Of a DNA stretch of 28,982 bases, positions 1-26,077 are shown one piece after another. The notes under the pieces are model-generated. The model saw only the letters and a list, made by a program, of their open reading frames with translations, did not search any database and was not told where the DNA came from. The stretch's first letter is position 1. Each line of letters begins with the position of its first letter. The translations under genes were made by a program, and so were the position numbers. Origin of the DNA: an uncultured virus (IMG/VR IMGVR_UViG_3300032270_000884) (lineage: Duplodnaviria; Heunggongvirae; Uroviricota; Caudoviricetes); the IMG/VR virus record IMGVR_UViG_3300032270_000884. One strand, given 5' to 3'.

Positions 1-2592
1 ACTTCTCAGCCACCTGTCGATCCGACTCCCGGTTCAAGTCAGACAAGTGATCAGGGTTCAACAACCCAGCCTGATACAACTTCCACGTCTTCGCCCTCGG
101 GTAATCCTGTTGTCCAGACACAATCCGATCCACAGTCTCAGACGCCCACTTCTGGTTCTTCTCAGCAATCCGATCCAAATCAATCTGGTACATCTGGTTC
201 TTCGACTTCAAGTTCTTCATCTCCTGCTCAGACTTCTCCAGAGCCTCAACCATCCCCTTCGCCGACTCCAACAAGTTCTGATTCTGGCGTAAGCGGTTCT
301 CAGTCTGTTCAATCAACCACTCAAGATCCTTCACCTGCGCCCGTGCAACCGACAGGGCCAACAACAGATTCTCCAACAGTTACCTCCATTCAAACAAAGA
401 TAGACAGTGCAACTGTAACATTGACAACATCTGTGAGCGCCGCAAATCCTACAGCAGTTTTAGAAGCAACAGTACAAGTCACAGAAGCACAGACAGCAAT
501 TACAACCGCTCAAACAGCCTTGTCTACAGCCACTACAGCAGTCGCAGCCGTAGATACTCAAACAGCAGTAGTAACGCAAGCCGTTACTAACGTAGATTCA
601 GCTACAGTAGTAGTGGCTACAGCAACTACAAACTTAAGTAATGCTCAAGCTGATCTCTCTACAGCTCAAACAGTAGCAACAACAGCTCAGGCTGCTGCTG
701 ATGCCTCAGGCGTTATTACAACCGCACCTGGTCTTGCTGTAAAGGTTTATAACGTTCAAGGTCAAAATAATGCTCCAGTATTACCACAAGGCGCAACACC
801 TATCCACACAGCAGTTGACACTAACGGTATCAATGAAAACTGGGGAAGCGGTAACGTAGCTGGTTCTAATCGTTCAGAGGATGTAATTGTTACTTATGAA
901 GGACAAGTTACTGCACCAAATGGTGTTAATAGCATTCGTTTTTTAACTTACTCTGATGACGGAGCAAGAATCTATATAGATAACGTACTAGTAGTTGATA
1001 GATGGGTGGACCAGGGGCCTACCTGGAGCACCGCAAGTCAGTGGCTTGATTTTACTAACGACAGAACTAAAGACATTGCAGTGTGGTATTACGAAAATGG
1101 TGGTGGTGCAACCCTTCATTTAGGTTGGCAACACAGCGGTATTCATACTGGCGTAGGCGCTGAGTACTTATCACATACAACAACTACTCAAGACCCAGCA
1201 TTAGTTGCTGCTGCTGCTACAGCAGTTGCTGCTGTGCCTGTAGCAGAAGCAGTTGTTACAGATAAGACGCAAGTGAAAGAAGTAGCAGAGACAGAACTTG
1301 CAACAGCTCAGACCACATTAACAACAGAGACTCAAACATTAACTACCCTCCAATCAACGGCTAGTACGGCACTTACTACAGCAAATGAATTAGCAAACAC
1401 GGCTACTACAAAAGTAGTTACTGCTGTTTCCGCAATTCAAGCGTACGTTCCACCCGCACCCGCACCAGAGCCTGCACCAGAGCCTGCGCCTGCGCCGCAG
1501 CCAACCCCAACGCCTGCGCCTGAACCTGCGCCTGTGCCAACACCTGCTCCTGAGCCTGCTCCAGAGCCAACACCTGCGCCCGAGCCTGCTCCAGAGCCGA
1601 CTCCAGAGCCTGAACCACCTGTGGCAATTCCTGATCCTGAACCGACACCTACTGAGCCACCCACAGAAGAGCCATTACCACCCACAGAACCCCAACCAGA
1701 ACCGGTAGAGCCTGAAGCGCCACCCGTAGAGCCCGAGGCGCCTCTGGAACCTTCCATACCCGAGGAACCAGCACCAGAACCAGAGTCACCAGCGCCAGAG
1801 CCAGAAAATCCGTCAGAAGAATCACAACAACCTCCAATTGAGGAACCACCAGCAGAAGAACCTCCTGCTGAAGAACCGCCTGCCGAGGAACCTCCCGCTG
1901 AGGAACCACCTGCGGAAGAATCTACACCACCAGAAGAACCACCTGCAACTCCTGAAGAAGCAGTTGCAGAGTCTGTAGACGAGGCACTTTCTGATGGAAA
2001 GCTTTCTGAGGCTGATGCTGATGCAATCATGGAATCTTTAAGCGCTGATGGAGAAGTTACAGCCGAAGAAGTGTCTGCGCTTTCTGATGCGCTGTCTGAA
2101 GATGGAAAACTAACTACAGCCGAAAAAGAACTTGTTGCTGAAGCCTTGATTGAATCAGTGGCTCCAGGAGAGACTCTTACTAAAGAACAAATTCAAGATG
2201 CTGGTATTGAGTATAAAGACCTACCAGCGGAGACCCCAGTTGAGGTTAGGCAGGATGAAAACGGTAACGAAGTTATAATTACAGCAGACGTAGCTGCGGC
2301 TCTAGTTTTACTAGAGAACCCTTCAGAATTAATTGGCGCAATCTTTAGCGATCCAGGGGAAGCACTACAAGCACTAGGAAGTATTGGTGCCGATATGTCC
2401 GCTGAAGAACGTGAAGAAGCAACCGACATGGTTGTTGCAACTGTTGTTGCTGCAGGTGCCGCTATGAATGCTGTAGGCGCTGCCGCTGGTGCTGCGGGTG
2501 GTTCATCCACTGGTGGTTCTGGTGGGGGAGGAAGTTCTGGAGGCGGAGGCGCTTCTGGAGAATCAAAAGGAGTCAGGAGAAGGAAACCGTGA
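1..2592 (+). CDS. 5'-truncated large protein: Ser/Thr/Gln-rich region, Ala/Thr helical stalk, PA14 domain, Pro/Glu-rich linker, hydrophobic and basic C-terminus
   Basis: Frame 1 is open from base 1 (TSQPPVDPTPGSSQ...) into the 343..2592 ORF, so the true start lies upstream of the window. PA14 motifs at ~730-1170 (GLAVKVY, INENWG, YSDDGARIYID, WYYENGGGA). C-terminus MVVATVVAAGAAMNAVGAAA...GVRRRKP. Confidence 0.85.
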   Translation, partial: TSQPPVDPTPGSSQTSDQGSTTQPDTTSTSSPSGNPVVQTQSDPQSQTPTSGSSQQSDPNQSGTSGSSTSSSSSPAQTSPEPQPSPSPTPTSSDSGVSGSQSVQSTTQDPSPAPVQPTGPTTDSPTVTSIQTKIDSATVTLTTSVSAANPTAVLEATVQVTEAQTAITTAQTALSTATTAVAAVDTQTAVVTQAVTNVDSATVVVATATTNLSNAQADLSTAQTVATTAQAAADASGVITTAPGLAVKVYNVQGQNNAPVLPQGATPIHTAVDTNGINENWGSGNVAGSNRSEDVIVTYEGQVTAPNGVNSIRFLTYSDDGARIYIDNVLVVDRWVDQGPTWSTASQWLDFTNDRTKDIAVWYYENGGGATLHLGWQHSGIHTGVGAEYLSHTTTTQDPALVAAAATAVAAVPVAEAVVTDKTQVKEVAETELATAQTTLTTETQTLTTLQSTASTALTTANELANTATTKVVTAVSAIQAYVPPAPAPEPAPEPAPAPQPTPTPAPEPAPVPTPAPEPAPEPTPAPEPAPEPTPEPEPPVAIPDPEPTPTEPPTEEPLPPTEPQPEPVEPEAPPVEPEAPLEPSIPEEPAPEPESPAPEPENPSEESQQPPIEEPPAEEPPAEEPPAEEPPAEEPPAEESTPPEEPPATPEEAVAESVDEALSDGKLSEADADAIMESLSADGEVTAEEVSALSDALSEDGKLTTAEKELVAEALIESVAPGETLTKEQIQDAGIEYKDLPAETPVEVRQDENGNEVIITADVAAALVLLENPSELIGAIFSDPGEALQALGSIGADMSAEEREEATDMVVATVVAAGAAMNAVGAAAGAAGGSSTGGSGGGGSSGGGGASGESKGVRRRKP
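1450..1950 (+). repeat. Coding low-complexity repeats: (PAPE/PTPA)n followed by (EEPPA)n
   Basis: Visible in the translation and in the DNA (cctgcaccagag-type units; gaagaacctcctgct-type 15-mers). Confidence 0.9.
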
Positions 2593-3440: not shown

Positions 3441-3991
3441 TGGCAGATCAAGGCACAGCAGCTCGTTTTATTGAGGTTGCTACAGCGGAACTAGGAACTA
3501 TTGAAGGCCCTAAAGATAACGAAACAAAGTACGGAGCTTACACAAAGGCTAACTTCCAACCCTGGTGTGGAAGTTTCGTTAACTGGTGTGCAAACGAGGC
3601 TGGGGTAAAAATCCCTAACACTGTTTACACTCCAGGTGGTGCACAGGCATTTAAGAAGGCTGGGCAGTGGATTGATGGAGACCTTGCTGATCCAGAACCA
3701 GGTGATGTCGTTTATTTTGATTTCCCGTCAGATGGTGTCGACCGGATCAGTCACGTAGGAATTGTTGTTAAAGACAATGAAGATGGAACTGTTTGGTGTA
3801 TTGAAGGAAATACGTCTTCAAAGAAGTCTGGGAGCCAACGAAATGGCGGAGAAGTGTGTAAACAACTTCGTGCTTTTAAAAAGAACAAGGCTGGCGTTAT
3901 GGTTTCAATTGTTGGGTTTGGTCGCCCAAAGTTCGGTAAAGCACCAGCAAAGAAAGAATCTTCCGACAAATGCCCGACTTGCGGTAAATAA
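3440..3991 (+). CDS. CHAP-domain peptidoglycan hydrolase (endolysin-like)
   Basis: PWCGSFVNWC (catalytic Cys), PGDVVYF, SHVGIV (catalytic His), IEGNT; AAGGA RBS. Confidence 0.88.
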   Translation: MADQGTAARFIEVATAELGTIEGPKDNETKYGAYTKANFQPWCGSFVNWCANEAGVKIPNTVYTPGGAQAFKKAGQWIDGDLADPEPGDVVYFDFPSDGVDRISHVGIVVKDNEDGTVWCIEGNTSSKKSGSQRNGGEVCKQLRAFKKNKAGVMVSIVGFGRPKFGKAPAKKESSDKCPTCGK

Positions 3992-4731
3992 TGAAAACTA
4001 CGGACTACGAATCCCCTAAGCTTCGCATTGTTGAAGACTTTGTATCAAAAGAAGACTGTGATTGGTTTGTTAACTACGTAACAGAAAAGAACCTGTGGGC
4101 GTATAACAACGCTAAGGCTGGAGATTTTCCAGACAAAATGGATTACGACATGGTTGCCAAGCAATGGGATAACCGTAAAGTTGAATTTAATAGCCTTTAC
4201 GCTAGTAAGGAACAGCCAGAACTACTAAGCCACGCTTACCCAATTATGCGACGTGCCAAAGAGCAAGTTGCTGATTTCTTTAAGGTAGAGGACTCTTCGT
4301 TTCAACTAGAGAGTTGGGAGTCGGTTCGTTGGTACAACCCATACCACCAAGGTCCACATATCGACTACATTGATAAAGACTTTGACAGAACTCAACTACC
4401 TGCTGATTATGACGCTTCATTCTTTACACCAGAAGAAGAAGATATGTACAAGCGCCATTGCACAACAAAGCACTACACGGGCATGATCTATATGAATGAA
4501 GATTTTGAAGGAGGGGAACTTTATTTCCCTAAGCACGATAACTTTGAGATTAGACCCAAGCCCGGCATGCTGGTTATATTTAGCGGAAACATCTTTAATC
4601 CACACGGTATTCGACAGATTACTAGCGGAACCCGCTACGTACACACCACCTTTTGGACAAAAGGGCAGAATAAAAACTGGCAAGTTGGATACGAAGAAAG
4701 CCTAGGCAAGCTAGACAAATTCTGGCTATAA
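3991..4731 (+). CDS. 2OG-Fe(II) oxygenase, prolyl 4-hydroxylase-like
   Basis: HID metal motif, YMNEDFEGGELYF, PKPGMLVIF, HGIRQITSGTRY (distal His and 2OG-binding Arg). Confidence 0.88.
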   Translation: MKTTDYESPKLRIVEDFVSKEDCDWFVNYVTEKNLWAYNNAKAGDFPDKMDYDMVAKQWDNRKVEFNSLYASKEQPELLSHAYPIMRRAKEQVADFFKVEDSSFQLESWESVRWYNPYHQGPHIDYIDKDFDRTQLPADYDASFFTPEEEDMYKRHCTTKHYTGMIYMNEDFEGGELYFPKHDNFEIRPKPGMLVIFSGNIFNPHGIRQITSGTRYVHTTFWTKGQNKNWQVGYEESLGKLDKFWL

Positions 4732-4732
4732 T
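4727..4732 (+). promoter_or_regulatory. -10 element (TATAAT) for hsp20
   Basis: Consensus TATAAT ~57 nt upstream of the hsp20 ATG. Confidence 0.6.
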
Positions 4733-4737
4733 ATATT

Positions 4738-4791
4738 TAGGTCGCCAACCGGGACCTATTTAACTTATATCGTCTAAGGAGATATAAAATG
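4738..4791 (+). promoter_or_regulatory. Structured 5'UTR, candidate ROSE-like RNA thermometer
   Basis: Hairpin 1 is TAGGTC(4738-43)/GACCTA(4753-58). Hairpin 2 is TTATATC-G-TC/GA-GATATAA (4765-4787), which pairs part of the AGGAG SD opposite a bulged G. Confidence 0.55.
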
Positions 4792-5298
4792 GCTTCAGGC
4801 ATTCCAAATTACAGTCCAACATCAACTTGGCCCCACGAACAATTCAGTAAGTACCCAAAGGGCCTTCCAGAACCATCACCCAAACTAATGACTCTGCAAC
4901 AACTAATGAGTGATCAGTTTTTCTTGGGATTCGATGAACAGATCAAACGGTGGAACTCACTCACATCTACAAAGGTTGTGACATTTCCTCCCTACAATTT
5001 AATCAAGTCAGATGATGACCACTACACGGTAGAACTTGCCGTGGCTGGGTACTCTAAAGAAGACATCGAGATTACTGTTGAGAAAGACCTTCTTACAGTA
5101 AAGAGCGTTGCTACTGAAGAACAGACCACAGATACCGTCCTTCATCGGGGCATTGCTAAGCGCCAGTGGACCCAGAAGTTTGTGTTGGGAGAGTGGTTCT
5201 CTATTAAGGGGGCGACCCTTGTTGACGGGCTTTTGACCATTAAAGTCGAGCGAGAAGTCCCAGAAGAGTTAAAACCAAAAGTTATCAAAATAAAGTAA
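4789..5298 (+). CDS. hsp20: Small heat-shock protein (Hsp20/alpha-crystallin family)
   Basis: FPPYNLIK, YTVELAVAGYSKEDIEI, LHRGIAKR, ATLVDGLLTI, PKVIKI C-terminal IxI motif; AAGGAG RBS. Confidence 0.95.
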   Translation: MASGIPNYSPTSTWPHEQFSKYPKGLPEPSPKLMTLQQLMSDQFFLGFDEQIKRWNSLTSTKVVTFPPYNLIKSDDDHYTVELAVAGYSKEDIEITVEKDLLTVKSVATEEQTTDTVLHRGIAKRQWTQKFVLGEWFSIKGATLVDGLLTIKVEREVPEELKPKVIKIK

Positions 5299-6193: not shown

Positions 6194-6529
6194 ATGGCTT
6201 CTTATATTTCTAAGAAAATGACCAGCCCAACTCAGTTGGGTACTTCGGCATCTACTGTTTACACAGTTGGAGCAGGCGTTACCGCTACCGTAAAAGAGAT
6301 CTTAGTAGCAAACGTTTCTGGCTCATCTTCCTCAGTTTCTATTCATTTTGTTAATAGCGGCGGTATTGCGTCTTCTTCTAACTTACTATTCCCAGCTGTA
6401 GGTATTTCCGCTAACTCATCCCTTGCTTTTGACGTTAATCAAGTCCTAGACGCTGGTTCTACTATCCAAGCATTCGCTGGAAACGCAAGCGCTGTAAACA
6501 TTATGATTTCTGGATTTGAGGCCTCGTAA
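6194..6529 (+). CDS. Small beta-rich virion/fibre-associated protein
   Basis: AAGGA RBS; TVYTV...ILVAN...VSIHFV...ISGFE pattern, similar to 26078..26410. Confidence 0.7.
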   Translation: MASYISKKMTSPTQLGTSASTVYTVGAGVTATVKEILVANVSGSSSSVSIHFVNSGGIASSSNLLFPAVGISANSSLAFDVNQVLDAGSTIQAFAGNASAVNIMISGFEAS

Positions 6530-6669
6530 TGTCTAGAGGAACTCGCGTATGGGGACCTACAATTGTCACAGATAACACTGACGGTCGCCGAAACATTTTT
6601 GCATCTACATCTGCCCCATCTAACAGCAATGGCCGTGACGGAGATATCTGGCTCACTTATACAGCGTAA
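6529..6669 (+). CDS. 46-aa fibre-motif peptide (not in ORF track)
   Basis: TAATG overlap; MSRGTRVWGPTIVTDNTDGRRNIFASTSAPSNSNGRDGDIWLTYTA, with an AP...G.DGDIW motif typical of phage fibre proteins. Confidence 0.7.
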   Translation: MSRGTRVWGPTIVTDNTDGRRNIFASTSAPSNSNGRDGDIWLTYTA

Positions 6670-6684
6670 TTTAGGAGACCAGAC

Positions 6685-8031
6685 GTGGCAAGTAGCTCGA
6701 AGGTTAACGGTAGCTGGAAGAATAATTCTGGCTGGTATGTAAAAGTAAACGGCGTATGGAAAGCCGTTAGTTACGGCTACACAAAAACAAACGGAACTTG
6801 GAAATCTTTCTTAGTTCCAACACCAACGCCTACTCCAGTCTTTACTCCTACACCAACTCCAGTTTTCACACCGACTCCTACTCCAACGCCTACACCTACG
6901 CCAACTCCTACGCCAACTCCTACACCTGTATACACTGCAAACGATTGTATAGATGATGATGCTGGATACTGCACAAACGTAGACGCTCAAGGTTACGGAG
7001 ATTTCTACCAGTATCAATATAGTCCTAGTGGTATTTATACGTGTCCAGCAAGATTTACTGGAAGAACTTTCTGCGGAATTACTCCAACTCCAACACCTAC
7101 TCCAACACCTACACCTACTCCAACACCTACACCTGTTTATACAAGTGGATGTACAACAACCAGCGGTCCTTGCGGTGGATCTTGTTGCCCATACGGAAGC
7201 GGTACTCAGCCTTGCGGTAATGGTGGAACTCAAACTTACTGCATTACTCCTCAAGGTTGTGCTGATGTGTATGGACCATGTACTGGTCAAACTCCAACAC
7301 CTACACCTGTTTACACTCCAACACCTACGCCAACACCTACACCTGTCTTTACTCCTACTCCTACTCCTTACAGCATTTACCCAACACCTACACCTACTCC
7401 AACACCAGTTTATACACCTACTCCAACCCCTACTCCAACACCAGTTTATACACCTACTCCAACCCCATTTACAATTCCTACTCCAACACCTTACACAGCA
7501 CCACGTTTCGTTGATCCATACTACGGTGTTGGTAACCCTTGTATTCAAGGTGACACTATGGTTCTTGTATCAGTTGATGGACTGGTCACAACAAAGAAGG
7601 CTCGTGAAGTTGAAATCGGAGACCTTGTTGTTTCATTGAACTTCTCAGAAATTGATAAGGATGATCCAGATTGGAACTTGTACGAGTGGATGTCTGAATC
7701 TCTTACATTTGTTGATCCTCAAGTATCTAAGGTCATTAACAAGACTCAATCAGTCCACGCTAAGGTTGCCTACTTCAACGGTAACGTTGCCGCTACCTTC
7801 TCTGAGTTCCACCCATTCCTAGTACGTCGTAGCGGAACTTATGAGTTCTACACAGTTTCTACCTTGCTACCTGGTGACACAATATTTACTTACAACAACG
7901 ATACAAACACTGTTGATCCACTTGTTATTGAAACTGTTGCTTGGATTGAAGGGGCAACGGATGCTTACAACTTCAGCGTTGAAGCGTACGACATTGTGAT
8001 TGCTGGTGGCTATGTCACCCACAACAAGTAA
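6685..8031 (+). CDS. Fibre-like protein: KxNGxWK repeats, (Thr-Pro)n tracts, two Cys-rich modules, C-terminal Hint (intein-like) domain
   Basis: AGGAG plus GTG start; KVNGSWK/KVNGVWK/KTNGTWK. The Hint domain starts at C286 (nt 7540, CIQGDTMV) and has [21 protein letters not shown] and terminal VTHNK. Confidence 0.85.
6817..7495 (+). repeat. Three coding (Thr-Pro)n tracts punctuated by VY/VF
   Basis: actcca/acacct hexamer arrays at ~6817-6930, ~7081-7140 and ~7291-7495. Confidence 0.9.
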
Positions 8032-8638
8032 TCTGTATTCATCGGTAACGGAGATTGCGCCTTGCGTAAAACTCTATGATGATGTGTGGCCCGGTTCTAC
8101 CGCTTTTATTGAAAAACTAGAGGCTGGTACTGAAACTAGCTTTATACGTTGGGGCGCTGGAACCCTTAACACAGATAAAGGACCACTAGTTGATACTAAG
8201 TATAGAAATGTTCAACTTATAGGCATACCTTCATTTGAAGGGTTTCCACCTAAAGAGGACGCAGACCCAGCCGTATTTAAAATGTACGATATGTATAACG
8301 AATTGGTTTCCAACTTTGATCCAATAATTGAAGAATACCGCAGCGAATACGGGGTACCTACTGAAACTAAAGAAGGCATACAGCTTTTAAAATACGGGGT
8401 AGATCAGTTTTTTGCGGCCCATGTAGATGACTCACCTAAACGCCCTAGAAGAATCTCATACGTTTACTACGTTAACGAGGACTACGAAGGCGGAGAAATA
8501 GAGTTCACCAACTTCAAGGTAACGGTAAAACCCAAGGCGCATCAACTGTTGGTATTCCCATCAAGCTATGCCTACCGTCATGCGGTCCACCCAGTTACCG
8601 CAGGTACTCGCTATGCTATGGTTCAATGGTGGAACTAG
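8012..8638 (+). CDS. 2OG-Fe(II) oxygenase, prolyl 4-hydroxylase-like
   Basis: [43 protein letters not shown] 8012 preferred over TTG 8000. Confidence 0.9.
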
Positions 8639-9357
8639 AGCCAACAACAATTTATTTTATCTCGTCCGATTCGCAAGAGCCTGGGCTTGAGCCAGAAGTT
8701 AGCGCAAAATCACTACCCGCTTGGTATAAAACCGCTGACAGATATGATGAAGCCCACAGTAGTACTTTTAGAAACTGTGTACCAGTTTTTGACTCTATGA
8801 CAGCTGGGTATGTGTATTTGACACCCTGTGACATAGAGTTTACTGAGGTTAACGGTAAGTTAGAGGTAAAAGTGTTGGACCAAGACTTTGTTGCGTTTGT
8901 AACGGCCAGAGAACCAACTCCTCATCTTCATAACCCAGAGGGTTACTACGACCATCATTTTGCTTGGTTACCTAGGTGGGGGCTTTCTTTAGGAGAAGGC
9001 TACAGCGCTCTGTACGTAACACCTTTAAACCGCTTTGAACTTCCGTTTATCTGTGCTTCTGGAATTATCGACAATGACAAAATGAACACTCCGGGAATGA
9101 TGCCGTTTTGGGTTAGAAAAGGATTCTCTGGTGTTATCCCTAAGGGAACCCCATTTATGCAAATACTGCCGTTTAAAAGAGAAAATTGGCAGGCTATCAA
9201 TATTGCTGCCGATGAGGTTCAAGTAACGCGAAATTTAAAAAGAGCGCTTAGATTTAGATCAGAACCCAACGACTACTATAGAAACCACACTTGGAGCCGT
9301 AAAAAGTACAAGATTCAAGATGGGGTAAGATTGAGCCAAGAAGAAGGGGACCAGTAA
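8626..9357 (+). CDS. Conserved phage protein, DUF6065-like (possible dUTPase-like fold)
   Basis: LPAWYK, CVPVFDSMTAGY, GYSALYVTPLNR, SGIIDND, IPKGTPFMQILPFKRENW. Recalled as a family that co-occurs with phage 2OG oxygenases; family name unverified. Confidence 0.65.
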   Translation: MVELEPTTIYFISSDSQEPGLEPEVSAKSLPAWYKTADRYDEAHSSTFRNCVPVFDSMTAGYVYLTPCDIEFTEVNGKLEVKVLDQDFVAFVTAREPTPHLHNPEGYYDHHFAWLPRWGLSLGEGYSALYVTPLNRFELPFICASGIIDNDKMNTPGMMPFWVRKGFSGVIPKGTPFMQILPFKRENWQAINIAADEVQVTRNLKRALRFRSEPNDYYRNHTWSRKKYKIQDGVRLSQEEGDQ

Positions 9358-9575
9358 TGGCAGAAGAACAGAGATCGGTTAAACCTTGGGATATGTGGAA
9401 TGATGATGTCCCACGTGCAACAGATGAAGTAAGAGATGAACGTTTAAGCGTTTGTATGTCTTGCGAGCATTTAATTAAATTTACAAAACAATGTAAAAAG
9501 TGCGGGTGCTTTATGGCTATTAAAACAAAGCTAGCGGGAGCGGAATGCCCTGTTGGAAAATGGAAGGCAGTTTAA
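9357..9575 (+). CDS. Small Cys-rich metal-binding protein (DUF6171-like)
   Basis: CMSC...CKKCGC...K......CPVGKW; TAATG overlaps at both ends. Confidence 0.75.
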   Translation: MAEEQRSVKPWDMWNDDVPRATDEVRDERLSVCMSCEHLIKFTKQCKKCGCFMAIKTKLAGAECPVGKWKAV

Positions 9576-10177
9576 TGAACTTTATTGCTCCAGGATTAGC
9601 AACTGTTGATAACGTTTTGCTCTCAGAAATTGACTCACTAATTTCTGATTTAGAATACAGCGCAAGTACTGGGATTCTTAATTGGGTCGGTGGAGAGGTA
9701 TCTGGGCAGTACGAGTCGCAGCAAAACACTAAAGTACGCGATACATCTGTTCTTTCCATTCCAATGCCTAACATAGATGACAAGGGACCAGACGAGTTTG
9801 GAAACCCGAAAGATTTAATTTCTCACGGTGTAGGAACAGTTTTTAGAGATGCGTTTATGCCTCATCTTAACCAGTACTTTGGGCGTTTTGGTGTAGACAT
9901 TAGAGATTACGATGGTTACCAAGTCCTTAAATACGGAATTGGTCAAAAGTTTGACCGTCACGCAGATGATCATTGGAGGTATCCTCGTAGGGTATCTCTG
10001 ACTTATTACGCAAACGATGATTACGAAGGTGGCGAAATCGAGTTTGATGAGTTTGAGGTAATGCTCAAACCTAAAAAAGGTCAGCTACTTATATTCCCAT
10101 CAACTTATGTTTATACTCACACGGTGCACCCAGTTACTGCGGGCACCAGATATGCGGTGGTTCAATGGATGAAATGA
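9575..10177 (+). CDS. 2OG-Fe(II) oxygenase, prolyl 4-hydroxylase-like (paralogue of 8012..8638)
   Basis: [43 protein letters not shown] 9575 overlaps the upstream stop. Confidence 0.9.
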   Translation: MNFIAPGLATVDNVLLSEIDSLISDLEYSASTGILNWVGGEVSGQYESQQNTKVRDTSVLSIPMPNIDDKGPDEFGNPKDLISHGVGTVFRDAFMPHLNQYFGRFGVDIRDYDGYQVLKYGIGQKFDRHADDHWRYPRRVSLTYYANDDYEGGEIEFDEFEVMLKPKKGQLLIFPSTYVYTHTVHPVTAGTRYAVVQWMK

Positions 10178-10767
10178 CAAGTTCAACTAGGTCTCCTAGA
10201 CCAGCACCTGCGTTAATCGACGGTGTTTTTACAGCAGATGATTTTAAACGACTATCTGGTCTTATGGCAGCACAAGACCATAGTGTTCAAAATCAGTCTG
10301 GCTTTGGTCGAGTTGGGATAAGCGATCTAGACGTTCCAGAGTTAGTTGAATACGCAAATAAAGCTAGGGGTATAGTTCGTCAAACTACTGGAAGTGAAAC
10401 GCTACTCCACACATATACCCTTTACTCTTACTACTACGGAAACACAGCTAATTTACCTAAGCACACAGATAACAACGCTTGCACATATACGTTAGATTTA
10501 ATGATTAGGTATGGAACAGCAAATTGGGGTCTTTTTGTAGAAGGTCAAGAGTACTTTGTTGAACCAAACCAAGGACTTGTATTTTACGGAAATGATCAAG
10601 AACACTGGCGTGGAGATTTTCCAAATCCTAGCAACAACGGTGTTGCGGTAATTTTCTTTCACTACGCTGAGCCAGACCACTGGTACTTTACCAAGGGGCG
10701 AGATTACGTAAATGTAATTAACGGAACTTGGACAGAAGCCGAATGGGAAAAGCGTAAAGAACGATGA
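10174..10767 (+). CDS. 2OG-Fe(II) oxygenase superfamily protein (distinct subfamily)
   Basis: LPKHTD..CTYTLDL, GLVFYGNDQEHWR, IFFHY; ATGA coupling at 10174. Confidence 0.75.
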   Translation: MTSSTRSPRPAPALIDGVFTADDFKRLSGLMAAQDHSVQNQSGFGRVGISDLDVPELVEYANKARGIVRQTTGSETLLHTYTLYSYYYGNTANLPKHTDNNACTYTLDLMIRYGTANWGLFVEGQEYFVEPNQGLVFYGNDQEHWRGDFPNPSNNGVAVIFFHYAEPDHWYFTKGRDYVNVINGTWTEAEWEKRKER

Positions 10768-11720
10768 AAACTGCCCTAGTACTTGGTGCTGGGGGTTTCA
10801 TAGGTAGCCACTTAGTTAAGAAACTAAAAGAAGAAGGCTTCTGGGTTCGTGGCGTTGACCTAAAGTACCCTGAGTATTGGAAGACGTACGCTGATGAGTT
10901 TTTGTTATCTGACTTACGTAATAGGCATGAAGTAGACCATGTAATAGACCGTAGGTTTGACGAGGTGTATCAACTAGCCGCAGATATGGGTGGCATCGGC
11001 TATATCAGCGGAAACCATGACGCAGAGATAATGAGTAACTCTGTGCTAATCAACGTTAACGTTTTAAAGCGTTGTGAGCAGATGGGTATCCGTGGAGTGT
11101 TCTACTCTTCATCAGCATGCATCTACCCAGAGCATAACCAACTAAACCCTAATAACTTTACGTGTGAAGAGTCCAGTGCTTATCCAGCAAACCCTGACAC
11201 TGAATACGGGTGGGAAAAACTATTTAGCGAGCGCCTCTACCTTGCTTACAATAAAGAACACGGTATGAAAAACAAAGTGGCTAGGTACCACAACGTATTT
11301 GGCCCATATGGAACTTGGAAGGGCGGTAAAGAAAAAGCGCCCGCTGCTCTATGCCGCAAAGTAGCCTCCGCTACAGACGAGATTGAAATATGGGGTGATG
11401 GAGAACAACTACGGTCATTTTTATACATTGACGAATGCGTACAGTCAACCATTGATTTCTACAGAGAGCCTACATTTTTTGATCCATTAAACATAGGCTC
11501 AACACAAACTATTTCAATAAACGCTCTTGCGGATTTAATTTGTTATATTGCTAATAAACCGCTATCTAAAAAACACATTGAAGGCCCTACTGGAGTTCGA
11601 GCAAGAACTTCTGATAATGAACTAATTACTAAAGTGCTTGGAAAAGCTCCCAAAGAAGATTTGAAGTACGGGCTAGAGCAAACATATGCTTGGATTGCTG
11701 AATGCCTAGCAACCTCCTAA
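10764..11720 (+). CDS. NAD-dependent epimerase, GDP-mannose 3',5'-epimerase (GME)-like
   Basis: GAGGFIGSH, LAADMGG, SSACIYPE, YGWEK, GGKEKAPAALCRK, WGDGEQLRSF: the GME subgroup signatures, including the catalytic Cys and Lys. Confidence 0.88.
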   Translation: MKTALVLGAGGFIGSHLVKKLKEEGFWVRGVDLKYPEYWKTYADEFLLSDLRNRHEVDHVIDRRFDEVYQLAADMGGIGYISGNHDAEIMSNSVLINVNVLKRCEQMGIRGVFYSSSACIYPEHNQLNPNNFTCEESSAYPANPDTEYGWEKLFSERLYLAYNKEHGMKNKVARYHNVFGPYGTWKGGKEKAPAALCRKVASATDEIEIWGDGEQLRSFLYIDECVQSTIDFYREPTFFDPLNIGSTQTISINALADLICYIANKPLSKKHIEGPTGVRARTSDNELITKVLGKAPKEDLKYGLEQTYAWIAECLATS

Positions 11721-12751
11721 TTTATGAACTTTACAACCCTTGTGGTCTATTTAACCAAGTAACTAGCCTTGAAAAAGGTGTGGCGCTTTCTTACGCATTT
11801 AAAAGAGATTTACTAATACATAACGTTGTAAATATGGCTTACCCTAGTTTAGAAAAACGTCAAGGGATGTTTACCAATAATACTAGTCCAAAATACAAAG
11901 TAGACAGAAAAGGATTGACGGACGAATCCCGTAACCCTCAAATAAATGATCTACTTAGTTTTACTCCTTATTCAAATGCTGTATTTGTAGATAATCAACT
12001 GGGAAATATATCTTCCAAGCCCGTTGGCCCTGTTAACTTTAGAAATATGTACGTTAATCTAAGTGACGATAAAACAAATGAATATGATTTCTCGTTAGGC
12101 AGATCTAAGTTAAAAAACCCAATTGGTTATGACCTTGAGGTTAGGTGCACTATTGGCTGGTATTCAGCGTTCTTTATGAACAGAACGCCCGAGGTAGATT
12201 TTGGACTGTCTACAGTCCGTTTTAAGCCCGAGTATTACGAGCTAGCAAAAAGGGTAGCCGACTCCCTTGGCGACTTCTCTGGGGCTCATATAAGGCTCAC
12301 AGACAACCAATTTGGCTACCCAACCACTAAGCAGGTTGAGGCCGGTTTAGACAGCCTTGAAAAACACCCAATTGTCATTTCTACTGATCAGCCTAGTCAC
12401 TTAACAATTACCAACCAAAATCACACACTCTTAGATTCCTACATACAAGAGAACTTTTTTAAAGAGTTTAGGGAGTTAGAGTTTACTGACGAGATATCTT
12501 TGGGTCTTGTGTGCAACCTTGTGATGCATCACGCTAAAGACTTTATTGGAAGCCAAGGAAGTACCTTTACTGGATACATACAAAGATACGTGCGTAACGA
12601 CATGAAGATTTTTGGGGAAGAGGATTACAACATAACTGGAGCCTTTACTTGGAACGGCTACAAGTTGCCAAGGCTTAAGCAATACAACTTGACGGTCAAC
12701 GACATCCCTTGGTGGCGTGAATGGCCTGAGGCTAAACTACAGATAGGCTGA
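11702..12751 (+). CDS. GT-B glycosyltransferase, O-fucosyltransferase (POFUT/NodZ)-like
   Basis: GLFNQ, AHIRLTD, VISTD, FIGSQGSTFTGYI: the GDP-sugar-binding motifs of the fucosyltransferase superfamily. Confidence 0.8.
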   Translation: MPSNLLIYELYNPCGLFNQVTSLEKGVALSYAFKRDLLIHNVVNMAYPSLEKRQGMFTNNTSPKYKVDRKGLTDESRNPQINDLLSFTPYSNAVFVDNQLGNISSKPVGPVNFRNMYVNLSDDKTNEYDFSLGRSKLKNPIGYDLEVRCTIGWYSAFFMNRTPEVDFGLSTVRFKPEYYELAKRVADSLGDFSGAHIRLTDNQFGYPTTKQVEAGLDSLEKHPIVISTDQPSHLTITNQNHTLLDSYIQENFFKEFRELEFTDEISLGLVCNLVMHHAKDFIGSQGSTFTGYIQRYVRNDMKIFGEEDYNITGAFTWNGYKLPRLKQYNLTVNDIPWWREWPEAKLQIG

Positions 12752-12776: not shown

Positions 12777-12822
12777 TGGATAGCACCCCGATCAGGTGCT
12801 TAATCACTCTAGAGGAGATAAA

Positions 12823-13536
12823 ATGGCAACAGATACATCAGGTCAGCAAGCAGTTGACTTCGTATGGGGACCTTTCCCTATGCAACCAAATAACGACCGT
12901 GCTGCGGCAATCACCCCAGCAAACATCGGCGGAGGCGCCGGAGACTATTCTTGGTCTGCAACTACACGCGTAGCTTCAGACCGTCTTGACCCAGCACTTT
13001 CAAACCACGCAGTCGCAGAGGCTGCCTACGCTGGATACCCTGGCTTTACAGGAAATGATGATGGCGCATATGTTTCAGGAGTTGCGTATATCGTAGTTCC
13101 TTCAGTACTTGGTGACACAACAGCCGTAGCTCTTGATGAGCTTAAGGATGCTGGTTACGAAGCATCTAACATCACAACAGCTTCAGCAGCTACAAACGCA
13201 GCTTCAACAATCACAGCAGTTACACGCACAGGCACAGCGGCACAAATTAACTCAACAGGTGCTGGTGCTAAGTATCCAGTAGGCACAAAGATTACAGTTG
13301 CAAACCTTGTTTCTCCAGATACAGCACTAAACGGTACTTGGACAGTTACAGGAGTTGGAACAAATACAGTTGCATTTACAACCACAACATCAGGTACTCT
13401 TTCAACAACAGGTATTTCTGTTGCTGGACTCACAGGTGTTGCTGGAACAATCAAGACTCAGTCAACAGCAGCAGGTGCTGCTTCTGTGGCTACAACAGCA
13501 ACAATCACAATCACACCTTGGGCAACAGCTTCATAA
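12823..13536 (+). CDS. Ala/Thr-rich probable virion protein with a split PASTA-like motif and an inserted beta module
   Basis: ATG 12823 after GAGGAG; VPSVLGDTTAVALDELKDAGY ... GTIKTQSTAAG; codon usage resembles the MCP gene. Confidence 0.65.
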   Translation: MATDTSGQQAVDFVWGPFPMQPNNDRAAAITPANIGGGAGDYSWSATTRVASDRLDPALSNHAVAEAAYAGYPGFTGNDDGAYVSGVAYIVVPSVLGDTTAVALDELKDAGYEASNITTASAATNAASTITAVTRTGTAAQINSTGAGAKYPVGTKITVANLVSPDTALNGTWTVTGVGTNTVAFTTTTSGTLSTTGISVAGLTGVAGTIKTQSTAAGAASVATTATITITPWATAS

Positions 13537-13584: not shown

Positions 13585-14124
13585 TTAGTACCAATGGTTC
13601 TTTTGCCAGAAGGCCCATGCGTTGCATGCGCCGTGCGGATCGCTGGCGGATCCATATCGCTTGAAGATATAACGAAGTCCGTATTTGATTTGGAGTTTTG
13701 CTTCGGCAGTCTTTTCGACTCCGTAGTTGCCCCAAGTAGATGGCATGAACTGGGCAATTCCGTATGCGCCAGAGCTCATGTTCTTAGCCTTAGGGTTGAA
13801 ATGGCTCTCCTTTTGCCAGATATTGCGGAGGCACTTCCACTCTTCCATTGGCCAATCATTTGCATAAGTGGTCAAGAAAGCGAGCGCTTCAGCGTCAAAG
13901 TATTTGACGGTGTCACTTGCCAAGGCGGCCTTGGCTTCTGTTTTAGTAGTTGTTACCTTCAGGTAGGTCAAACTGACCGTAACTGATTTTTCGGGCTTTG
14001 CAGGTGTTGTCAGAGCCTGTGCCGTTGGTGGAACTACTAGGTGCGATGTAGCAATAAGAAATACTGCTAACTTCGCTCCTAACTTCTTTAGATCAACTTG
14101 GAAGTTGATTCTGATATTAAGCAT
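13585..14124 (-). CDS. Secreted or membrane-anchored lytic transglycosylase (SLT/lysozyme-like)
   Basis: WKCLRNIWQKESHFNPKAKNMSSGAYGIAQF, QIKYGLRYI..RYG, AWAFWQKNHWY; N-terminal hydrophobic stretch; GAGAGGAG RBS. Confidence 0.9.
   Translation of the reverse strand: MLNIRINFQVDLKKLGAKLAVFLIATSHLVVPPTAQALTTPAKPEKSVTVSLTYLKVTTTKTEAKAALASDTVKYFDAEALAFLTTYANDWPMEEWKCLRNIWQKESHFNPKAKNMSSGAYGIAQFMPSTWGNYGVEKTAEAKLQIKYGLRYIFKRYGSASDPHGACNAWAFWQKNHWY

Positions 14125-23289: not shown

Positions 23290-26077
<2,788 letters not shown>

What the first reader, a model, noticed from the sequence alone, without database searches (positions are those of the whole stretch)
6194..12751. Candidate phage-encoded protein hydroxylation/O-glycosylation system dedicated to a Thr-Pro-rich, Hint-processed fibre
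Seen: one chain of overlapping or abutting genes, comprising two fibre-associated genes, a (TP)n/Cys-rich/Hint protein, three 2OG-Fe(II) oxygenases (two P4H-like), a DUF6065-like protein, a Cys-rich protein, a GME-like epimerase and an O-fucosyltransferase-like enzyme, ending where a new promoter begins. Known: GME converts GDP-D-mannose to GDP-L-galactose/L-gulose, and L-galactose is 6-hydroxy-L-fucose, so a FucT-fold enzyme is a natural user of that donor. Prolyl hydroxylation followed by O-glycosylation is the logic of plant extensins and protist Skp1. Inference: substrate, hydroxylases, donor synthesis and transferase form one cassette that builds an extensin/mucin-like glycosylated virion appendage.
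Basis: partly seen in the sequence, partly recalled or inferred. Interest (0 to 1): 0.9.

Follow-up and report, generated by a model that had tools for sequence, protein, structure and literature searches.

The report
Phage fibre hydroxylation and glycosylation island
An uncultured phage encodes, right behind a proline/threonine-repeat fibre-like protein, enzymes that look able to hydroxylate its prolines and attach an unusual L-sugar; this pairing recurs and co-varies across many phages, but no chemistry has been shown.

Summary
The gene chain is real. It runs: a 448-aa (TP)n/Cys-knot protein with a Hint-like end, two P4H-type 2OG oxygenases, a DUF6065-like protein, DUF6171, a third oxygenase (oxyC), a true GDP-mannose 3,5-epimerase (GME) and a POFUT-fold glycosyltransferase (FucT).

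In 80 viral contigs plus the window (30 lineages), oxyC is found in 30/30, GME in 28/30 and DUF6171 in 26/30. The window's TP/Hint protein itself is lineage-specific. However, a Pro-repeat/Cys-knot protein lies just upstream, on the same strand, in 27/30 lineages. The other three have under 1.5 kb of upstream sequence.

A control set of 50 related fibre clusters shows a hypervariable enzyme slot behind the fibre gene.
- All 42 Pro-repeat fibres have an oxygenase there, against 3 of 8 poly-Thr fibres.
- A PVAP repeat motif tracks oxyC and FucT, and switches with them repeatedly on the fibre tree.
- Sister slots hold GT60, GT61, JmjC and radical-SAM genes.

Best reading (about 0.58): the phage hydroxylates and L-glycosylates its own fibre repeats. 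No chemistry is shown, and adjacency alone could produce the covariation.

This scan has already noted the same cassette on other DNA (e1-6053841). My searches found no paper describing it.

The parts
6194..6529 (+). 111-aa conserved protein of unknown function that precedes the Pro-repeat protein
   Evidence: phrog_1276, E 3e-7. The same family precedes a Pro-repeat protein in L001, L006, L060 and L061. A fibre role is not shown.
6685..7536 (+). N-terminal 284 aa of the 448-aa protein: an NGxWK-type N-terminus, TP repeats of the TPTPTPV[FY] type, and two Cys-rich modules. This is the candidate substrate.
   Evidence: Translation. TP runs counted. Positionally equivalent to the Pro-repeat/Cys-knot fibre parts found upstream of the module in 27/30 lineages.
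7537..8031 (+). C-terminal Hint-like domain (aa 285-448). It starts at Cys after ...GVGNP, has SEFHPF in mid-domain, and ends THN-K.
   Evidence: Atlas feature hits to PT-HINT, Intein_splicing and Hint clusters at 0.93. Homologous C-terminal domains that start P/G-C and end HNK or HNR occur on fibres of L012 (two fibres) and L062, with an incomplete match in L006. No Pfam hit and no PDB sequence hit.
8000..8638 (+). oxyA, a P4H-type 2OG-Fe(II) oxygenase
   Evidence: PF13640 at 1.3e-17. HVD...H motif readable. The family lies within 5 kb in 13/30 lineages.
8626..9357 (+). DUF6065-like protein of unknown role
   Evidence: phrog_7084 at 1e-25. Atlas neighbours score 0.97-0.98, and 12-21% of their members carry PF19541. 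Found in 7 of 81 loci.
9357..9575 (+). DUF6171, a small six-Cys protein and near-universal member of the island
   Evidence: PF19668 at 30.1 bits, above the cut-off of 27. Present in 26/30 lineages and in the slot of 48/50 control clusters.
9545..10177 (+). oxyB, a P4H-type 2OG-Fe(II) oxygenase
   Evidence: PF13640 at 1.9e-17. Best PDB sequence hits are B. anthracis P4H 3itq/5hv0 at 2e-5, followed by PiuC, LH3, the PBCV-1 P4H and PHD2.
10165..10767 (+). oxyC, a 2OG-oxygenase-fold protein and the universal partner of FucT
   Evidence: Model pLDDT 91.8. Foldseek top hit is PHD2 at E 1e-7. VIA Z 16.5-13.9 to many 2OG oxygenases, including prolyl hydroxylases and sugar-tailoring oxygenases. H100, D102 and H147 are invariant in 42 sequences. 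Present in 30/30 lineages.
10764..11720 (+). GDP-mannose 3,5-epimerase (GME)
   Evidence: PDB 2c59 at E 1.8e-90 over residues 6-314. The residues aligned to the plant enzyme's Ser/Cys/Tyr/Lys/Lys are identical. Present in 28/30 lineages.
11702..12751 (+). FucT-like GT-B glycosyltransferase
   Evidence: Model pLDDT 90. VIA: POFUT2 Z 15.3, CePOFUT2 14.7, NodZ 12.9, POFUT1 12.7, AtFUT1 12.5, FUT8 11.1, next hit 8.4. The invariant G-A-H-L-R-L-T-D aligns with POFUT2's HLRRKD.
12796..13536 (+). 246-aa Thr/Ala/Ser-rich protein between FucT and the transglycosylase. Whether it belongs to the island is uncertain.
   Evidence: Homologues follow FucT in L001, L006 and L043-L048. Only a sub-threshold PASTA hit.
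13585..14124 (-). SLT-type transglycosylase on the opposite strand. It marks the downstream boundary of the variable slot.
   Evidence: PF01464 at 1e-11. The same family closes the slot in the related fibre loci.
3991..4731 (+). Fourth oxygenase of the same P4H family, outside the finding's range
   Evidence: PF13640 at 2e-9. Falls in the same BLAST cluster as oxyA and oxyB.
1..2592 (+). Large PA14-domain protein with long acidic Pro-rich repeats (open at the 5' end). A possible second substrate.
   Evidence: Translation. PF07691 at 8.6e-6. Flagged as Pro-rich.
24350..26077 (+). Collagen-like tail fibre, the rival substrate for the P4H-type enzymes
   Evidence: PF01391 at 2.4e-43. Tail-fibre PHROGs.

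Best explanation
This is a phage fibre-tailoring island.

Proposed steps:
1. The 448-aa protein carries TP repeats, Cys-rich knots and a self-cleaving Hint-type end. It is the substrate.
2. The downstream oxygenases (oxyC; in this phage also the P4H-type oxyA and oxyB) hydroxylate prolines in its repeats.
3. GME converts host GDP-D-mannose to GDP-L-galactose or GDP-L-gulose.
4. The POFUT-fold transferase puts that L-sugar on the hydroxylated repeat. Less likely acceptors are Thr, or Ser/Thr in the Cys knots.

DUF6171 is a constant accessory of unknown role. The island is one variant of a hypervariable slot behind fibre genes. This slot swaps enzyme sets together with the repeat chemistry, presumably to diversify or shield the fibre surface.

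Shown: gene identities, folds, co-occurrence, position and covariation.
Inferred: every chemical step, the acceptor residue, the sugar, and that the protein is part of the virion.
For: 1. Enzyme identities.
- GME: E 1.8e-90 to a solved GME, with the aligned catalytic positions identical.
- FucT model: the six best representative chains are all GDP-fucose transferases (Z 15.3-11.1), with protein O-fucosyltransferases first, then a gap to 8.4. The HxR motif is invariant.
- oxyC model: a 2OG oxygenase with invariant H..D...H.

2. Co-occurrence. 80 IMG/VR loci plus the window collapse to 30 lineages at 90% FucT identity. oxyC is present in 30/30, GME in 28/30 and DUF6171 in 26/30.

3. Position.
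- 86 of 4057 ORFs have a Pro-rich window.
- 77 of these lie within 6 kb upstream of FucT on the same strand. None lie downstream on that strand (two on the other strand). Searched sequence was similar on both sides: 377 kb upstream, 359 kb downstream.
- 27/30 lineages have such an ORF. The three without have under 1.5 kb of upstream sequence.
- The proteins belong to several unrelated BLAST clusters but share one architecture: Pro repeats alternating with Cys knots.

4. Control. 74 loci were fetched through the conserved fibre N-domain, giving 72 complete fibres in 50 clusters.
- All 42 fibres with at least 150 aa of Pro-rich repeat have an oxygenase in the slot.
- Only 3 of 8 poly-Thr fibres do (Fisher 2.6e-5, uncorrected).

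5. Motif covariation.
- PVAP/PAPV occurs at 5 or more copies in 12/12 FucT+ clusters, 17/23 oxyC+ clusters and 0/19 oxyC- clusters.
- On a tree of the N-domain, oxyC changes at least 16 times.
- In independent pairs, the motif goes the same way in a mean of 7.5 of 10, and never the opposite way (median p 0.008).
- For FucT the figure is 6.4 of 7 (p 0.03).

6. Sister slots hold protein-type modifiers: PF11397/GT60 (the family that glycosylates Skp1 hydroxyproline and T. cruzi mucin Thr; PMC6939170, passages), GT61 with a cupin, a JmjC-type cupin, and NDP-sugar enzymes.

7. Some partner proteins are nearly Thr-free: 3.3% in L008 and 2.5% in L050. Pro is therefore the common denominator.

8. FucT never occurs without oxyC, while oxyC does occur without FucT. 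This fits hydroxylation first and sugar transfer second.
Against: - No chemistry, expression or virion data exist.
- The repeat part of the fibre and the slot are adjacent. One recombining cassette would therefore give the same covariation without any functional link.
- The window's own protein lacks the PVAP motif that tracks FucT elsewhere (0 copies in L001 of the window's lineage; none is visible in the window's own translation).
- The fold of oxyC does not resolve its substrate. Sugar-tailoring oxygenases (AviO1, EvdO, HygX) and AlkB-type enzymes score within 1-3 Z units of prolyl hydroxylases.
- FucT fails Pfam's gathering score.
- Collagen-like proteins are also present: in the window, in 18/30 lineages, and in 30/30 control loci with enough upstream sequence. 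They could be the P4H target.
- The any-oxygenase versus Pro-rich test has only 3 independent pairs (p 0.25).
- Only the best 80 of 462 fibre loci were fetched, 74 of them were analysed, and the two locus sets overlap.
- For PBCV-1, a review's reference list carries an unpublished note that no hydroxyproline was found in particles (PMC7019647).
Confidence: 0.58

Rival explanations
1. The enzymes remodel host cell-envelope glycans (an auxiliary metabolic or superinfection-exclusion function). They sit next to fibre genes only because that is a permissive insertion site.
For: Published cyanophage genome papers read phage glycosyltransferases and NDP-sugar epimerases as host cell-wall modification genes (PMC12801897, passages). 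GME homologues occur in T4-like cyanophages at 66-72% DNA identity. No acceptor has been shown.
Against: - The GT fold is closest to protein O-fucosyltransferases.
- The obligatory partner is a 2OG oxygenase, which has no obvious role in envelope glycan synthesis.
- There is a strong one-sided positional link to Pro-repeat proteins: 77 upstream against 0 downstream.
- The repeat motif co-varies with the enzyme set.
- The FucT family is nearly absent from 185,579 species genomes: 5 loci, only one of them close.
Confidence: 0.12
2. The enzymes do modify virion proteins, but not the Pro/Thr linkers. The P4H-type enzymes would hydroxylate the collagen-like fibres. Alternatively, or in addition, the POFUT-fold transferase would glycosylate Ser/Thr inside the small Cys-knot modules, as POFUT1/2 do on EGF and TSR modules.
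For: - oxyB's best solved relatives are collagen-type P4Hs.
- A collagen-like fibre lies at 24350-26077, and collagen-like ORFs occur in 18/30 lineages.
- The closest folds of the transferase are POFUT2 and POFUT1. From recall, these act only on folded Cys-knot modules.
- All partner proteins carry Cys knots.
Against: - Collagen-like genes are present whether or not the slot has an oxygenase (30/30 control loci), so they do not explain the slot's variation.
- Cys knots are also present in poly-Thr fibres that lack oxygenases and FucT.
- FucT and oxyC track the linker motif.
Confidence: 0.15
3. There is no common substrate. The fibre's variable 3' part and a hot spot for accessory genes are merely adjacent and are exchanged together by recombination.
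For: - The slot is highly mosaic: at least 12 enzyme combinations in 50 clusters.
- Near-identical N-domains carry different cassettes, for example L126 and L127.
- Covariation of adjacent DNA is expected from linkage alone.
Against: - The same pairing is kept in at least five different gene arrangements: the window type, and those of L003, L043-48, L060 and L062.
- The enzymes in the slot are repeatedly of protein-modifying families.
- FucT is nested within oxyC presence.
Confidence: 0.08
4. The oxygenases and the transferase hypermodify phage DNA or nucleotides, in the manner of TET/JBP-type hydroxylation followed by glycosylation.
For: Phage 2OG oxygenases combined with glycosyltransferases are known to do this (recalled). 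A few slot oxygenases give sub-threshold Tet_JBP hits at E 0.004-0.005.
Against: - The best matches are P4H/PHD-type. NgTET1 scores only Z 12.2, at rank 43.
- The genes lie among late and structural genes.
- No fucosyltransferase-fold enzyme is known to me to act on DNA (recalled).
- This reading does not explain the link to the repeat protein.
Confidence: 0.03

Closest known systems
Chlorovirus PBCV-1 prolyl 4-hydroxylase (A085R; PDB 5c5t) and that virus's own Pro-rich repeat ORFs (Eriksson et al. 1999, seen only in the reference list of PMC7019647; content recalled)
   Same: A virus-encoded P4H-type 2OG oxygenase paired with virus-encoded Pro-rich repeat proteins. 5c5t is a sequence hit of oxyB (E 0.004) and a fold hit of oxyC (Z 14.0).
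   Different: It is a virus of a eukaryote, and no dedicated donor-synthesis plus transferase module is linked to the hydroxylase. Here the genes are contiguous with the repeat protein and co-vary with it.
Skp1 hydroxyproline glycosylation pathway of Dictyostelium and Toxoplasma (PhyA prolyl hydroxylase, then Gnt1 of CAZy GT60, then further transferases including a fucosyltransferase; PMC6939170, passages)
   Same: The logic is the same: a soluble PHD-type prolyl hydroxylase, then a sugar on Hyp. DdPhyA is a fold hit of oxyC (Z 13.9). GT60-family genes (PF11397, E 1e-31 to 1e-35) occupy the sister slots of related phages.
   Different: The window has no GT60 gene. Its transferase is of the fucosyltransferase fold and has its own GME. 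The presumed target is a long repeat rather than a single proline.
Plant and algal hydroxyproline-rich glycoproteins (extensins and arabinogalactan proteins; recalled)
   Same: Repetitive AP/TP/VP/SP-type motifs, P4H, and O-glycosylation of Hyp that gives rod-like, protease-resistant segments. GME is otherwise a plant and algal enzyme.
   Different: There are no SPPPP motifs. None of the plant Hyp-transferase families was found here: the only GT in the window is FucT-like. The system is cytoplasmic and phage-encoded.
Protein O-fucosyltransferases POFUT1 (GT65) and POFUT2 (GT68)
   Same: They are the closest folds (Z 15.3 and 12.7). The profile hit to 4ap5 is E 2.6e-4, with the HxR donor-binding motif aligned. 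The likely donor is a GDP-beta-L-sugar.
   Different: Identity is 10-15%, and the Pfam score is below the gathering threshold. The phage enzyme is soluble and is paired with GME rather than with GDP-fucose synthesis. Its acceptor is unknown.
Mycobacteriophage virion glycosylation (Freeman et al. 2023, Cell Host Microbe; not held; seen only as a reference; content recalled)
   Same: An actinobacteriophage-encoded set of glycosyltransferases that O-glycosylates the phage's own virion proteins.
   Different: As recalled, the targets are the capsid and tail-tube C-termini, with no oxygenase, no GME and no repeat/Cys-knot fibre.
Mimivirus L230 collagen lysyl hydroxylase/glucosyltransferase (PDB 6ax6; function recalled)
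   Same: A viral 2OG oxygenase coupled to a glycosyltransferase that acts on a viral repeat protein. 6ax6 is a fold hit of oxyC (Z 12.9).
   Different: It hydroxylates Lys in GXY collagen, uses UDP-glucose, and is a fused enzyme in a giant virus.

Membership tests
GDP-mannose 3,5-epimerase (extended SDR) | Full-length similarity to biochemically and structurally defined GME | tested here: met
   E 1.8e-90 to 2c59 over residues 6-314. The next non-GME SDR hit is at 4e-21.
GDP-mannose 3,5-epimerase (extended SDR) | N-terminal GxxGxxG NAD site, and the Ser/Cys...Tyr-x3-Lys...Lys catalytic positions (roles recalled) | tested here: met
   GAGGFIGS is present. SSSAC, YGWEK and GGKEK are aligned and identical to the plant enzyme at these positions.
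GDP-mannose 3,5-epimerase (extended SDR) | Converts GDP-D-mannose to GDP-L-galactose or GDP-L-gulose | not testable with these tools
   Needs an enzyme assay.
GT-B GDP-fucose-type fucosyltransferases (POFUT1/2, NodZ, FUT8, AtFUT1) | Two-domain GT-B fold of this superfamily | tested here: met
   The top six of 48,161 representative chains are all of this group (Z 15.3-11.1), and the next hit is at 8.4. The Foldseek top hit is POFUT1 at E 3e-7.
GT-B GDP-fucose-type fucosyltransferases (POFUT1/2, NodZ, FUT8, AtFUT1) | Conserved Arg of the HxR(x)xD motif that binds the GDP phosphate (role recalled) | tested here: met
   H196, R198 and D201 are invariant in 42 sequences and align with POFUT2's HLRRKD.
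Pfam O-FucT (PF10250) | Score at or above the gathering threshold | tested here: not met
   21.3 bits against a cut-off of 31.5. 10 of the 43 homologues carry a precomputed PF10250 hit.
P4H-type 2OG-Fe(II) oxygenases (oxyA, oxyB) | PF13640 above threshold and an HxD...H iron triad | tested here: met
   65 and 64.5 bits against a cut-off of 27. HVD...H and HAD...H are readable.
P4H-type 2OG-Fe(II) oxygenases (oxyA, oxyB) | Peptidyl-proline as substrate | not testable with these tools
   There is only resemblance: the best solved relatives are B. anthracis P4H at 2e-5, followed by PiuC and LH3.
2OG-Fe(II) oxygenase superfamily (oxyC) | Double-stranded beta-helix fold with conserved His-x-Asp...His | tested here: met
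   Z 16.5 (6n1f), with 149 representative chains at Z>=8. H100, D102 and H147 are invariant. No Pfam hit for the window protein.
PHD/P4H prolyl hydroxylases (oxyC) | Closer to prolyl hydroxylases than to other 2OG oxygenases | tested here: inconclusive
   Foldseek ranks PHD2 first. VIA-align puts uncharacterised oxygenases, SnoK and HalB above or level with TaPHD (15.2), and the sugar-tailoring AviO1 at 14.8.
Hint/intein superfamily (C-terminus of the 448-aa protein) | Profile match to a Hint family | tested here: not met
   No Pfam family at E<=0.1 and no PDB sequence hit.
Hint/intein superfamily (C-terminus of the 448-aa protein) | First-residue Cys, a mid-domain (S/T)xxH, and a terminal His-Asn (motif names recalled) | tested here: met
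   ...[14 protein letters not shown] and ...THN-K are read. The same start and end occur in homologues of L012 and L062. Atlas neighbours are Hint families at 0.93 (a lead only).
DUF6171 (PF19668) | Score at or above the gathering threshold | tested here: met
   30.1 bits against a cut-off of 27.
DUF6065 (PF19541) | Profile match | tested here: not met
   No Pfam hit at E<=0.1. Only Atlas clusters in which 12-21% of members carry it.
Skp1-type Hyp-GlcNAc pathway | A GT60 (PF11397) transferase next to the hydroxylase | tested here: not met
   No PF11397 hit in the window's genes. It is present in sister slots L116, L150, L135 and L110.
Plant HRGP pathway | Plant-type Hyp O-glycosyltransferases and SPPPP/AGP glycomodules | tested here: not met
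   No GT other than the FucT-like one was found in the window. The repeats are TPTPTPV[FY]. The system works like this pathway but is not a member of it.

The most novel reading that the evidence does not exclude
Bacteriophages make hydroxyproline glycoproteins.
- oxyC, with the P4H-type enzymes, would convert prolines of PVAP/TP/VP fibre repeats to Hyp.
- A phage-specific POFUT-fold enzyme would then attach L-galactose or L-gulose, supplied by a phage GME.
- This would be a Hyp-O-L-hexose linkage unknown in any organism.
- The hypervariable slot behind fibre genes (GT60, GT61, JmjC, radical SAM, FucT/GME variants) would be a swappable 'glyco-code'. It would be exchanged together with the matching repeat, to alter fibre stiffness, protease resistance or receptor and defence recognition.
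- It would also give the abundant, long-unexplained phage '2OG-Fe(II) oxygenase/P4H' genes a substrate.
Probability: 0.3. Interest if true: 0.9.

Novelty: new variant of a known kind. Interest (0 to 1): 0.75.

Why it matters
- 2OG-Fe(II) oxygenases annotated as prolyl hydroxylases are frequent in genomes of aquatic phages, and I know of no assigned substrate for them (recalled; not tested here). This locus and its relatives name a concrete, testable one: the repeat linkers of the fibre encoded immediately upstream.
- If confirmed, it would extend prolyl hydroxylation followed by O-glycosylation to bacterial viruses. As far as I recall, that chemistry is known from plants, protists and giant viruses.
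- It would add an L-galactose or L-gulose donor route.
- It would show that phages diversify their host-recognition organelles post-translationally, through swappable enzyme-plus-substrate cassettes.
- That bears on host range, on resistance of fibres to proteases, and on engineering of phage surfaces.

Tried and rejected
- Homology test for the TP/Hint protein. tblastn found it in only 5-8 of 81 loci, which at first looked like a refutation. A composition-based search then showed that the partner is conserved in architecture, not in sequence.
- A pure (TP)>=4 criterion was too narrow: it caught 13/30 lineages.
- Isolate phages (50,697 records). No FucT, no Hint domain and no oxyC by tblastn, so no cultured model was found.
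- DUF6171 does occur in 67 isolate records. In S-IOM18, however, the neighbouring fibre is not Pro-rich.
- Fusion search. Two longer FucT forms were found (647 aa, and 798 aa with NTP_transf_5). Neither is fused to an oxygenase or to GME.
- PDB sequence searches found nothing for FucT, for the Hint part or for a GT60-like slot protein. The profile of oxyC found nothing meaningful.
- Collagen covariation test. It is uninformative because a collagen-like gene is present in all 30 control loci with enough upstream sequence.
- A loose 'P>=8 per 30 aa' filter blurred the 2x2 table (p 0.045). This is because poly-Thr fibres carry short PPFF repeats.
- Promoter scan: at chance level.
- The window's own genome is not held.
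- Earlier notes near this place: none.
- Complex prediction, sequencing-run look-ups and the representative-library search were not used.

Full report
**What is in the window.** The 28,982-base window is a phage-like contig, and no host genome is held for it.
- Its genes run almost entirely on the + strand.
- The major capsid protein is 72% identical to that of about 112-116 kb Streptomyces siphoviruses such as LuckySocke and BRock. The window's G+C is about 44%.
- I therefore take this to be an uncultured actinophage-type virus.
- The chain is 6194-6529, a 155-nt gap, 6685-8031, and then seven genes up to 12751, each overlapping the previous one by 1-32 nt.

**Gene identities.**
- The 448-aa product of 6685-8031 has an N-terminal NGxWK-type segment, TP repeats (longest run 10; 48 TP units in runs of 3 or more) and two Cys-rich modules.
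- Its C-terminal about 164 residues begin at a Cys and end THN-K. Pfam does not recognise this part. Its language-model neighbours are all Hint/intein clusters at 0.93, and homologous domains with the same start and end close other fibres.
- oxyA and oxyB are PF13640 oxygenases. oxyB's best solved relatives are the Bacillus anthracis collagen-type P4H (2e-5), PiuC, LH3, the PBCV-1 P4H and PHD2.
- 9357-9575 is DUF6171. 8626-9357 is DUF6065-like only by Atlas neighbours.
- oxyC has no Pfam hit. A confident model (pLDDT 91.8) is a 2OG-oxygenase fold with invariant H100, D102 and H147.
- Foldseek ranks PHD2 first for oxyC. An exhaustive structural comparison places prolyl hydroxylases, sugar-tailoring oxygenases and AlkB-type enzymes within a few Z units of each other. 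Its substrate is therefore not resolved by fold.
- GME is unambiguous: E 1.8e-90 to Arabidopsis GME, with the aligned catalytic positions identical.
- The last gene fails Pfam's O-FucT threshold. Its model (pLDDT 90) matches GDP-fucose transferases and nothing else at the top: POFUT2 Z 15.3, CePOFUT2 14.7, NodZ 12.9, POFUT1 12.7, AtFUT1 12.5, FUT8 11.1, next 8.4. The HxR motif is invariant in the family.

**Points of the observation that fail.**
- The 'fibre-associated' label of 6194-6529 is unproven, and ORF 6563-6742 is not conserved beyond the near-identical contig.
- The promoter-like match at 12748 is no better than chance.

**Co-occurrence of the enzymes.**
- A profile of 42 FucT homologues found 120 relatives in IMG/VR. 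The best 80 loci were fetched.
- With the window, they collapse to 30 lineages at 90% FucT identity.
- oxyC is present in 30/30, GME in 28/30 and DUF6171 in 26/30. The P4H family of oxyA and oxyB lies within 5 kb in 13/30.
- Homologues of the window's TP/Hint protein were found in only 5-8 of 81 loci, and Hint-type ends in 4/30 lineages.
- The conserved core is therefore DUF6171-oxyC-GME-FucT, not the whole chain.
- The family is nearly confined to viral contigs. It gave 5 loci in one genome each of 185,579 species, only one of them close, and that one on an 8.8-kb MAG contig. It gave none in 50,697 isolate phages.

**The partner protein is conserved in architecture.** Searching by composition instead of homology changed the picture.
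- Of 4057 ORFs in these loci, 86 have a Pro-rich window.
- 77 of them lie within 6 kb upstream of FucT on the same strand, and none lie downstream on that strand. Similar amounts of sequence were examined on both sides.
- 27 of 30 lineages have such a protein. The three without have under 1.5 kb upstream.
- The proteins fall in several BLAST clusters but share one design: long PTPVAPTPV, (TP)n, (PV)n or APPV repeats alternating with small Cys-containing modules. This is the window protein's design.
- Two are almost free of Thr, at 3.3% and 2.5%. Pro, not Thr, is therefore the common element.
- In most lineages this protein is a tail-fibre-like gene with a conserved about 240-aa N-domain, lying among collagen-like and other fibre genes.

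**Control set.**
- The conserved N-domain was used to fetch related fibres irrespective of the module. There were 462 relatives, and the best 80 were kept.
- 74 new loci were analysed. Six loci already held were left out, and two fibres were incomplete.
- This gave 72 complete fibres in 50 clusters at 90% identity. This set overlaps the first one, since some contigs are shared.
- Between the fibre's stop codon and an SLT transglycosylase on the opposite strand (also present in the window at 13585-14124) lies a slot of variable content.
- DUF6171 is in the slot in 48/50 clusters.
- The enzyme combinations seen in the 43 clusters with at least 100 aa of Pro-rich repeat were:

| Slot content | Clusters |
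|---|---|
| P4H only | 17 |
| P4H + oxyC | 7 |
| P4H + oxyC + GME | 3 |
| P4H + GME | 2 |
| oxyC + GME + FucT | 9 |
| P4H + oxyC + GME + FucT | 3 |
| oxyC only | 1 |
| GME only | 1 |

- In the other seven clusters, four slots hold none of these four enzymes, two hold P4H only and one holds P4H + GME.
- All 42 fibres with at least 150 aa of Pro-rich repeat have an oxygenase in the slot.
- The other 8 fibres carry poly-Thr linkers instead. Only 3 of them have an oxygenase, and those three also carry PPFF repeats (Fisher 2.6e-5, uncorrected).
- Other slot genes are a PF11397 glycosyltransferase, radical-SAM/SPASM proteins, NDP-sugar epimerases, GT61 with a cupin, a JmjC-type cupin, a HAD-nucleotidyltransferase and GT2.
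- PF11397 corresponds to CAZy GT60, the family of the Skp1 Hyp-GlcNAc transferase and of the T. cruzi mucin Thr-GlcNAc transferases (PMC6939170, passages). The equation of PF11397 with GT60 is recalled.

**Motif-enzyme covariation.**
- PVAP/PAPV units (5 or more) occur in 12/12 FucT+ clusters, 17/23 oxyC+ clusters and 0/19 oxyC- clusters.
- P4H-only fibres instead carry TPTP or VTPV/AVTP units.
- On a quick maximum-likelihood tree of the N-domain, oxyC changes state at least 16 times, FucT 12 times and the motif 15 times.
- Among independent pairs on well-supported branches, the motif follows oxyC in a mean of 7.5 of 10 and never opposes it (median p 0.008).
- It follows FucT in 6.4 of 7 (p 0.03).
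- The any-oxygenase versus Pro-rich test has only 3 pairs (p 0.25).
- FucT is never seen without oxyC, while oxyC occurs without FucT.

**Limits of this evidence.**
- The repeats and the slot are adjacent, so co-transfer as one cassette would produce this pattern even without a functional link.
- The window's own repeats (TPTPTPV[FY]) have no PVAP.
- In the FucT-anchored set, 19 of 27 partner proteins reach 5 PVAP copies.

**Mechanism proposed.**
- Shown: identities, folds, linkage and covariation.
- Inferred step 1: oxyC, here together with oxyA and oxyB, hydroxylates prolines of the repeats.
- Inferred step 2: GME makes GDP-L-galactose or GDP-L-gulose from host GDP-mannose. The activity of this family is established knowledge (recalled).
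- Inferred step 3: the POFUT-fold enzyme transfers that L-sugar. L-galactose is 6-hydroxy-L-fucose, and plant fucosyltransferases are known to accept GDP-L-galactose (recalled).
- Inferred step 4: the Hint-type end removes itself.
- The acceptor could be Hyp (favoured by the obligatory oxygenase and by the Thr-poor repeats), Thr, or Ser/Thr of the Cys knots by analogy with POFUT1/2.

**Rivals.** The rivals are host envelope remodelling (the reading printed for cyanophage GT and epimerase genes; PMC12801897), collagen-like fibres or Cys knots as the real target, linkage without function, and DNA modification.

**Prior knowledge.**
- Three literature searches found no description of such a phage system. 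The term sets were:
  - phage / hydroxyproline / tail fiber / glycosylation: 1 paper, on E. coli prophage collagens.
  - phage / prolyl hydroxylase / proline-rich / tail fiber: 0 papers.
  - phage / prolyl 4-hydroxylase / virion / hydroxyproline: 4 papers, none on this subject judging by title and abstract.
- Subscription papers are not covered. Freeman et al. 2023 on mycobacteriophage virion glycosylation could not be read.
- This scan has noted the same logic before on other DNA. One note concerns the same (PTPVA)n-hydroxylase-GME-FucT cassette (e1-6053841). Others concern the GT60, GT61/JmjC and PPFF variants. Those are unchecked AI notes. The tests above were run here independently.

**Verdict.** The system is a new variant of known hydroxylation-glycosylation chemistry in a new host, namely bacteriophage fibres. 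It is still without any biochemical proof.

Noticed in passing
L012:6643-8673, L012:18751-20019, L062:4910-6556; L135 and L149 fibres: Hint-like C-terminal domains close several otherwise different fibre proteins. They start ...PP-C or ...GG-C and end HN-K or HN-R. This suggests self-cleaving fibre precursors as a recurrent design.
   Followed up: partly
L116:13434-16142, L096:5676-8381, L150:6622-9252: Sister slots behind poly-Thr or (TP)n fibres hold a radical-SAM/SPASM protein, a PF11397 (GT60-type) glycosyltransferase and a short SDR epimerase. The oxygenase is absent where the linkers are poly-Thr. The radical-SAM enzyme next to Cys-knot repeats is unexplained.
   Followed up: partly
window 1-2592: A 5'-open large protein with a PA14 domain, long acidic Pro-rich repeats (PEPAPEP, EEPPA x5) and a Gly-rich basic tail. 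It is a second Pro-rich candidate substrate, conserved in L001, L006, L047 and L048.
   Followed up: partly
window 3440-5298: A CHAP endolysin is followed directly by a fourth P4H-family oxygenase (3991-4731) and then an Hsp20 (4789-5298).
   Followed up: no
window 12796-13536: A 246-aa Thr/Ala/Ser-rich protein with a sub-threshold PASTA hit sits between FucT and the transglycosylase. Homologues follow FucT in L043-L048. It could be another substrate or a structural protein.
   Followed up: no
L008:7394-8676, L063:7068-8409, L065, L050, L051: In some lineages the fibre is split. An N-domain ORF is followed by a separate ORF that begins ...PSGIGVHLRVV and continues as (PV)n or APPV repeats. This could be a frameshift site or a true two-gene arrangement.
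   Followed up: no
L054:9650-10597 and homologues (cluster c20, 9 lineages): A 315-aa protein without a Pfam hit, carrying a GCSxTxG-type motif, is inserted between FucT and GME in several lineages. It may be a further glycan-tailoring enzyme.
   Followed up: no
window 9357-9575; NC_021536.1 20939-21193: DUF6171 homologues occur in 67 isolate phage records (T4-like cyanophages, Stenotrophomonas and Rhizobium phages). In S-IOM18 the homologue lies a few genes after a tail-fibre gene and directly before an ORF annotated 'endonuclease V'. PHROGs with that name also matched oxyA and oxyB here.
   Followed up: partly
window 24350-28980: A collagen-like fibre (PF01391, E 2e-43) is followed by a fibre protein with a CBM5/12 carbohydrate-binding module.
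   Followed up: no
P0165, P0166: Two longer forms of the FucT-like family were found. One has an unassigned 300-aa C-terminal half. The other is fused to an NTP_transf_5 nucleotidyltransferase domain.
   Followed up: partly
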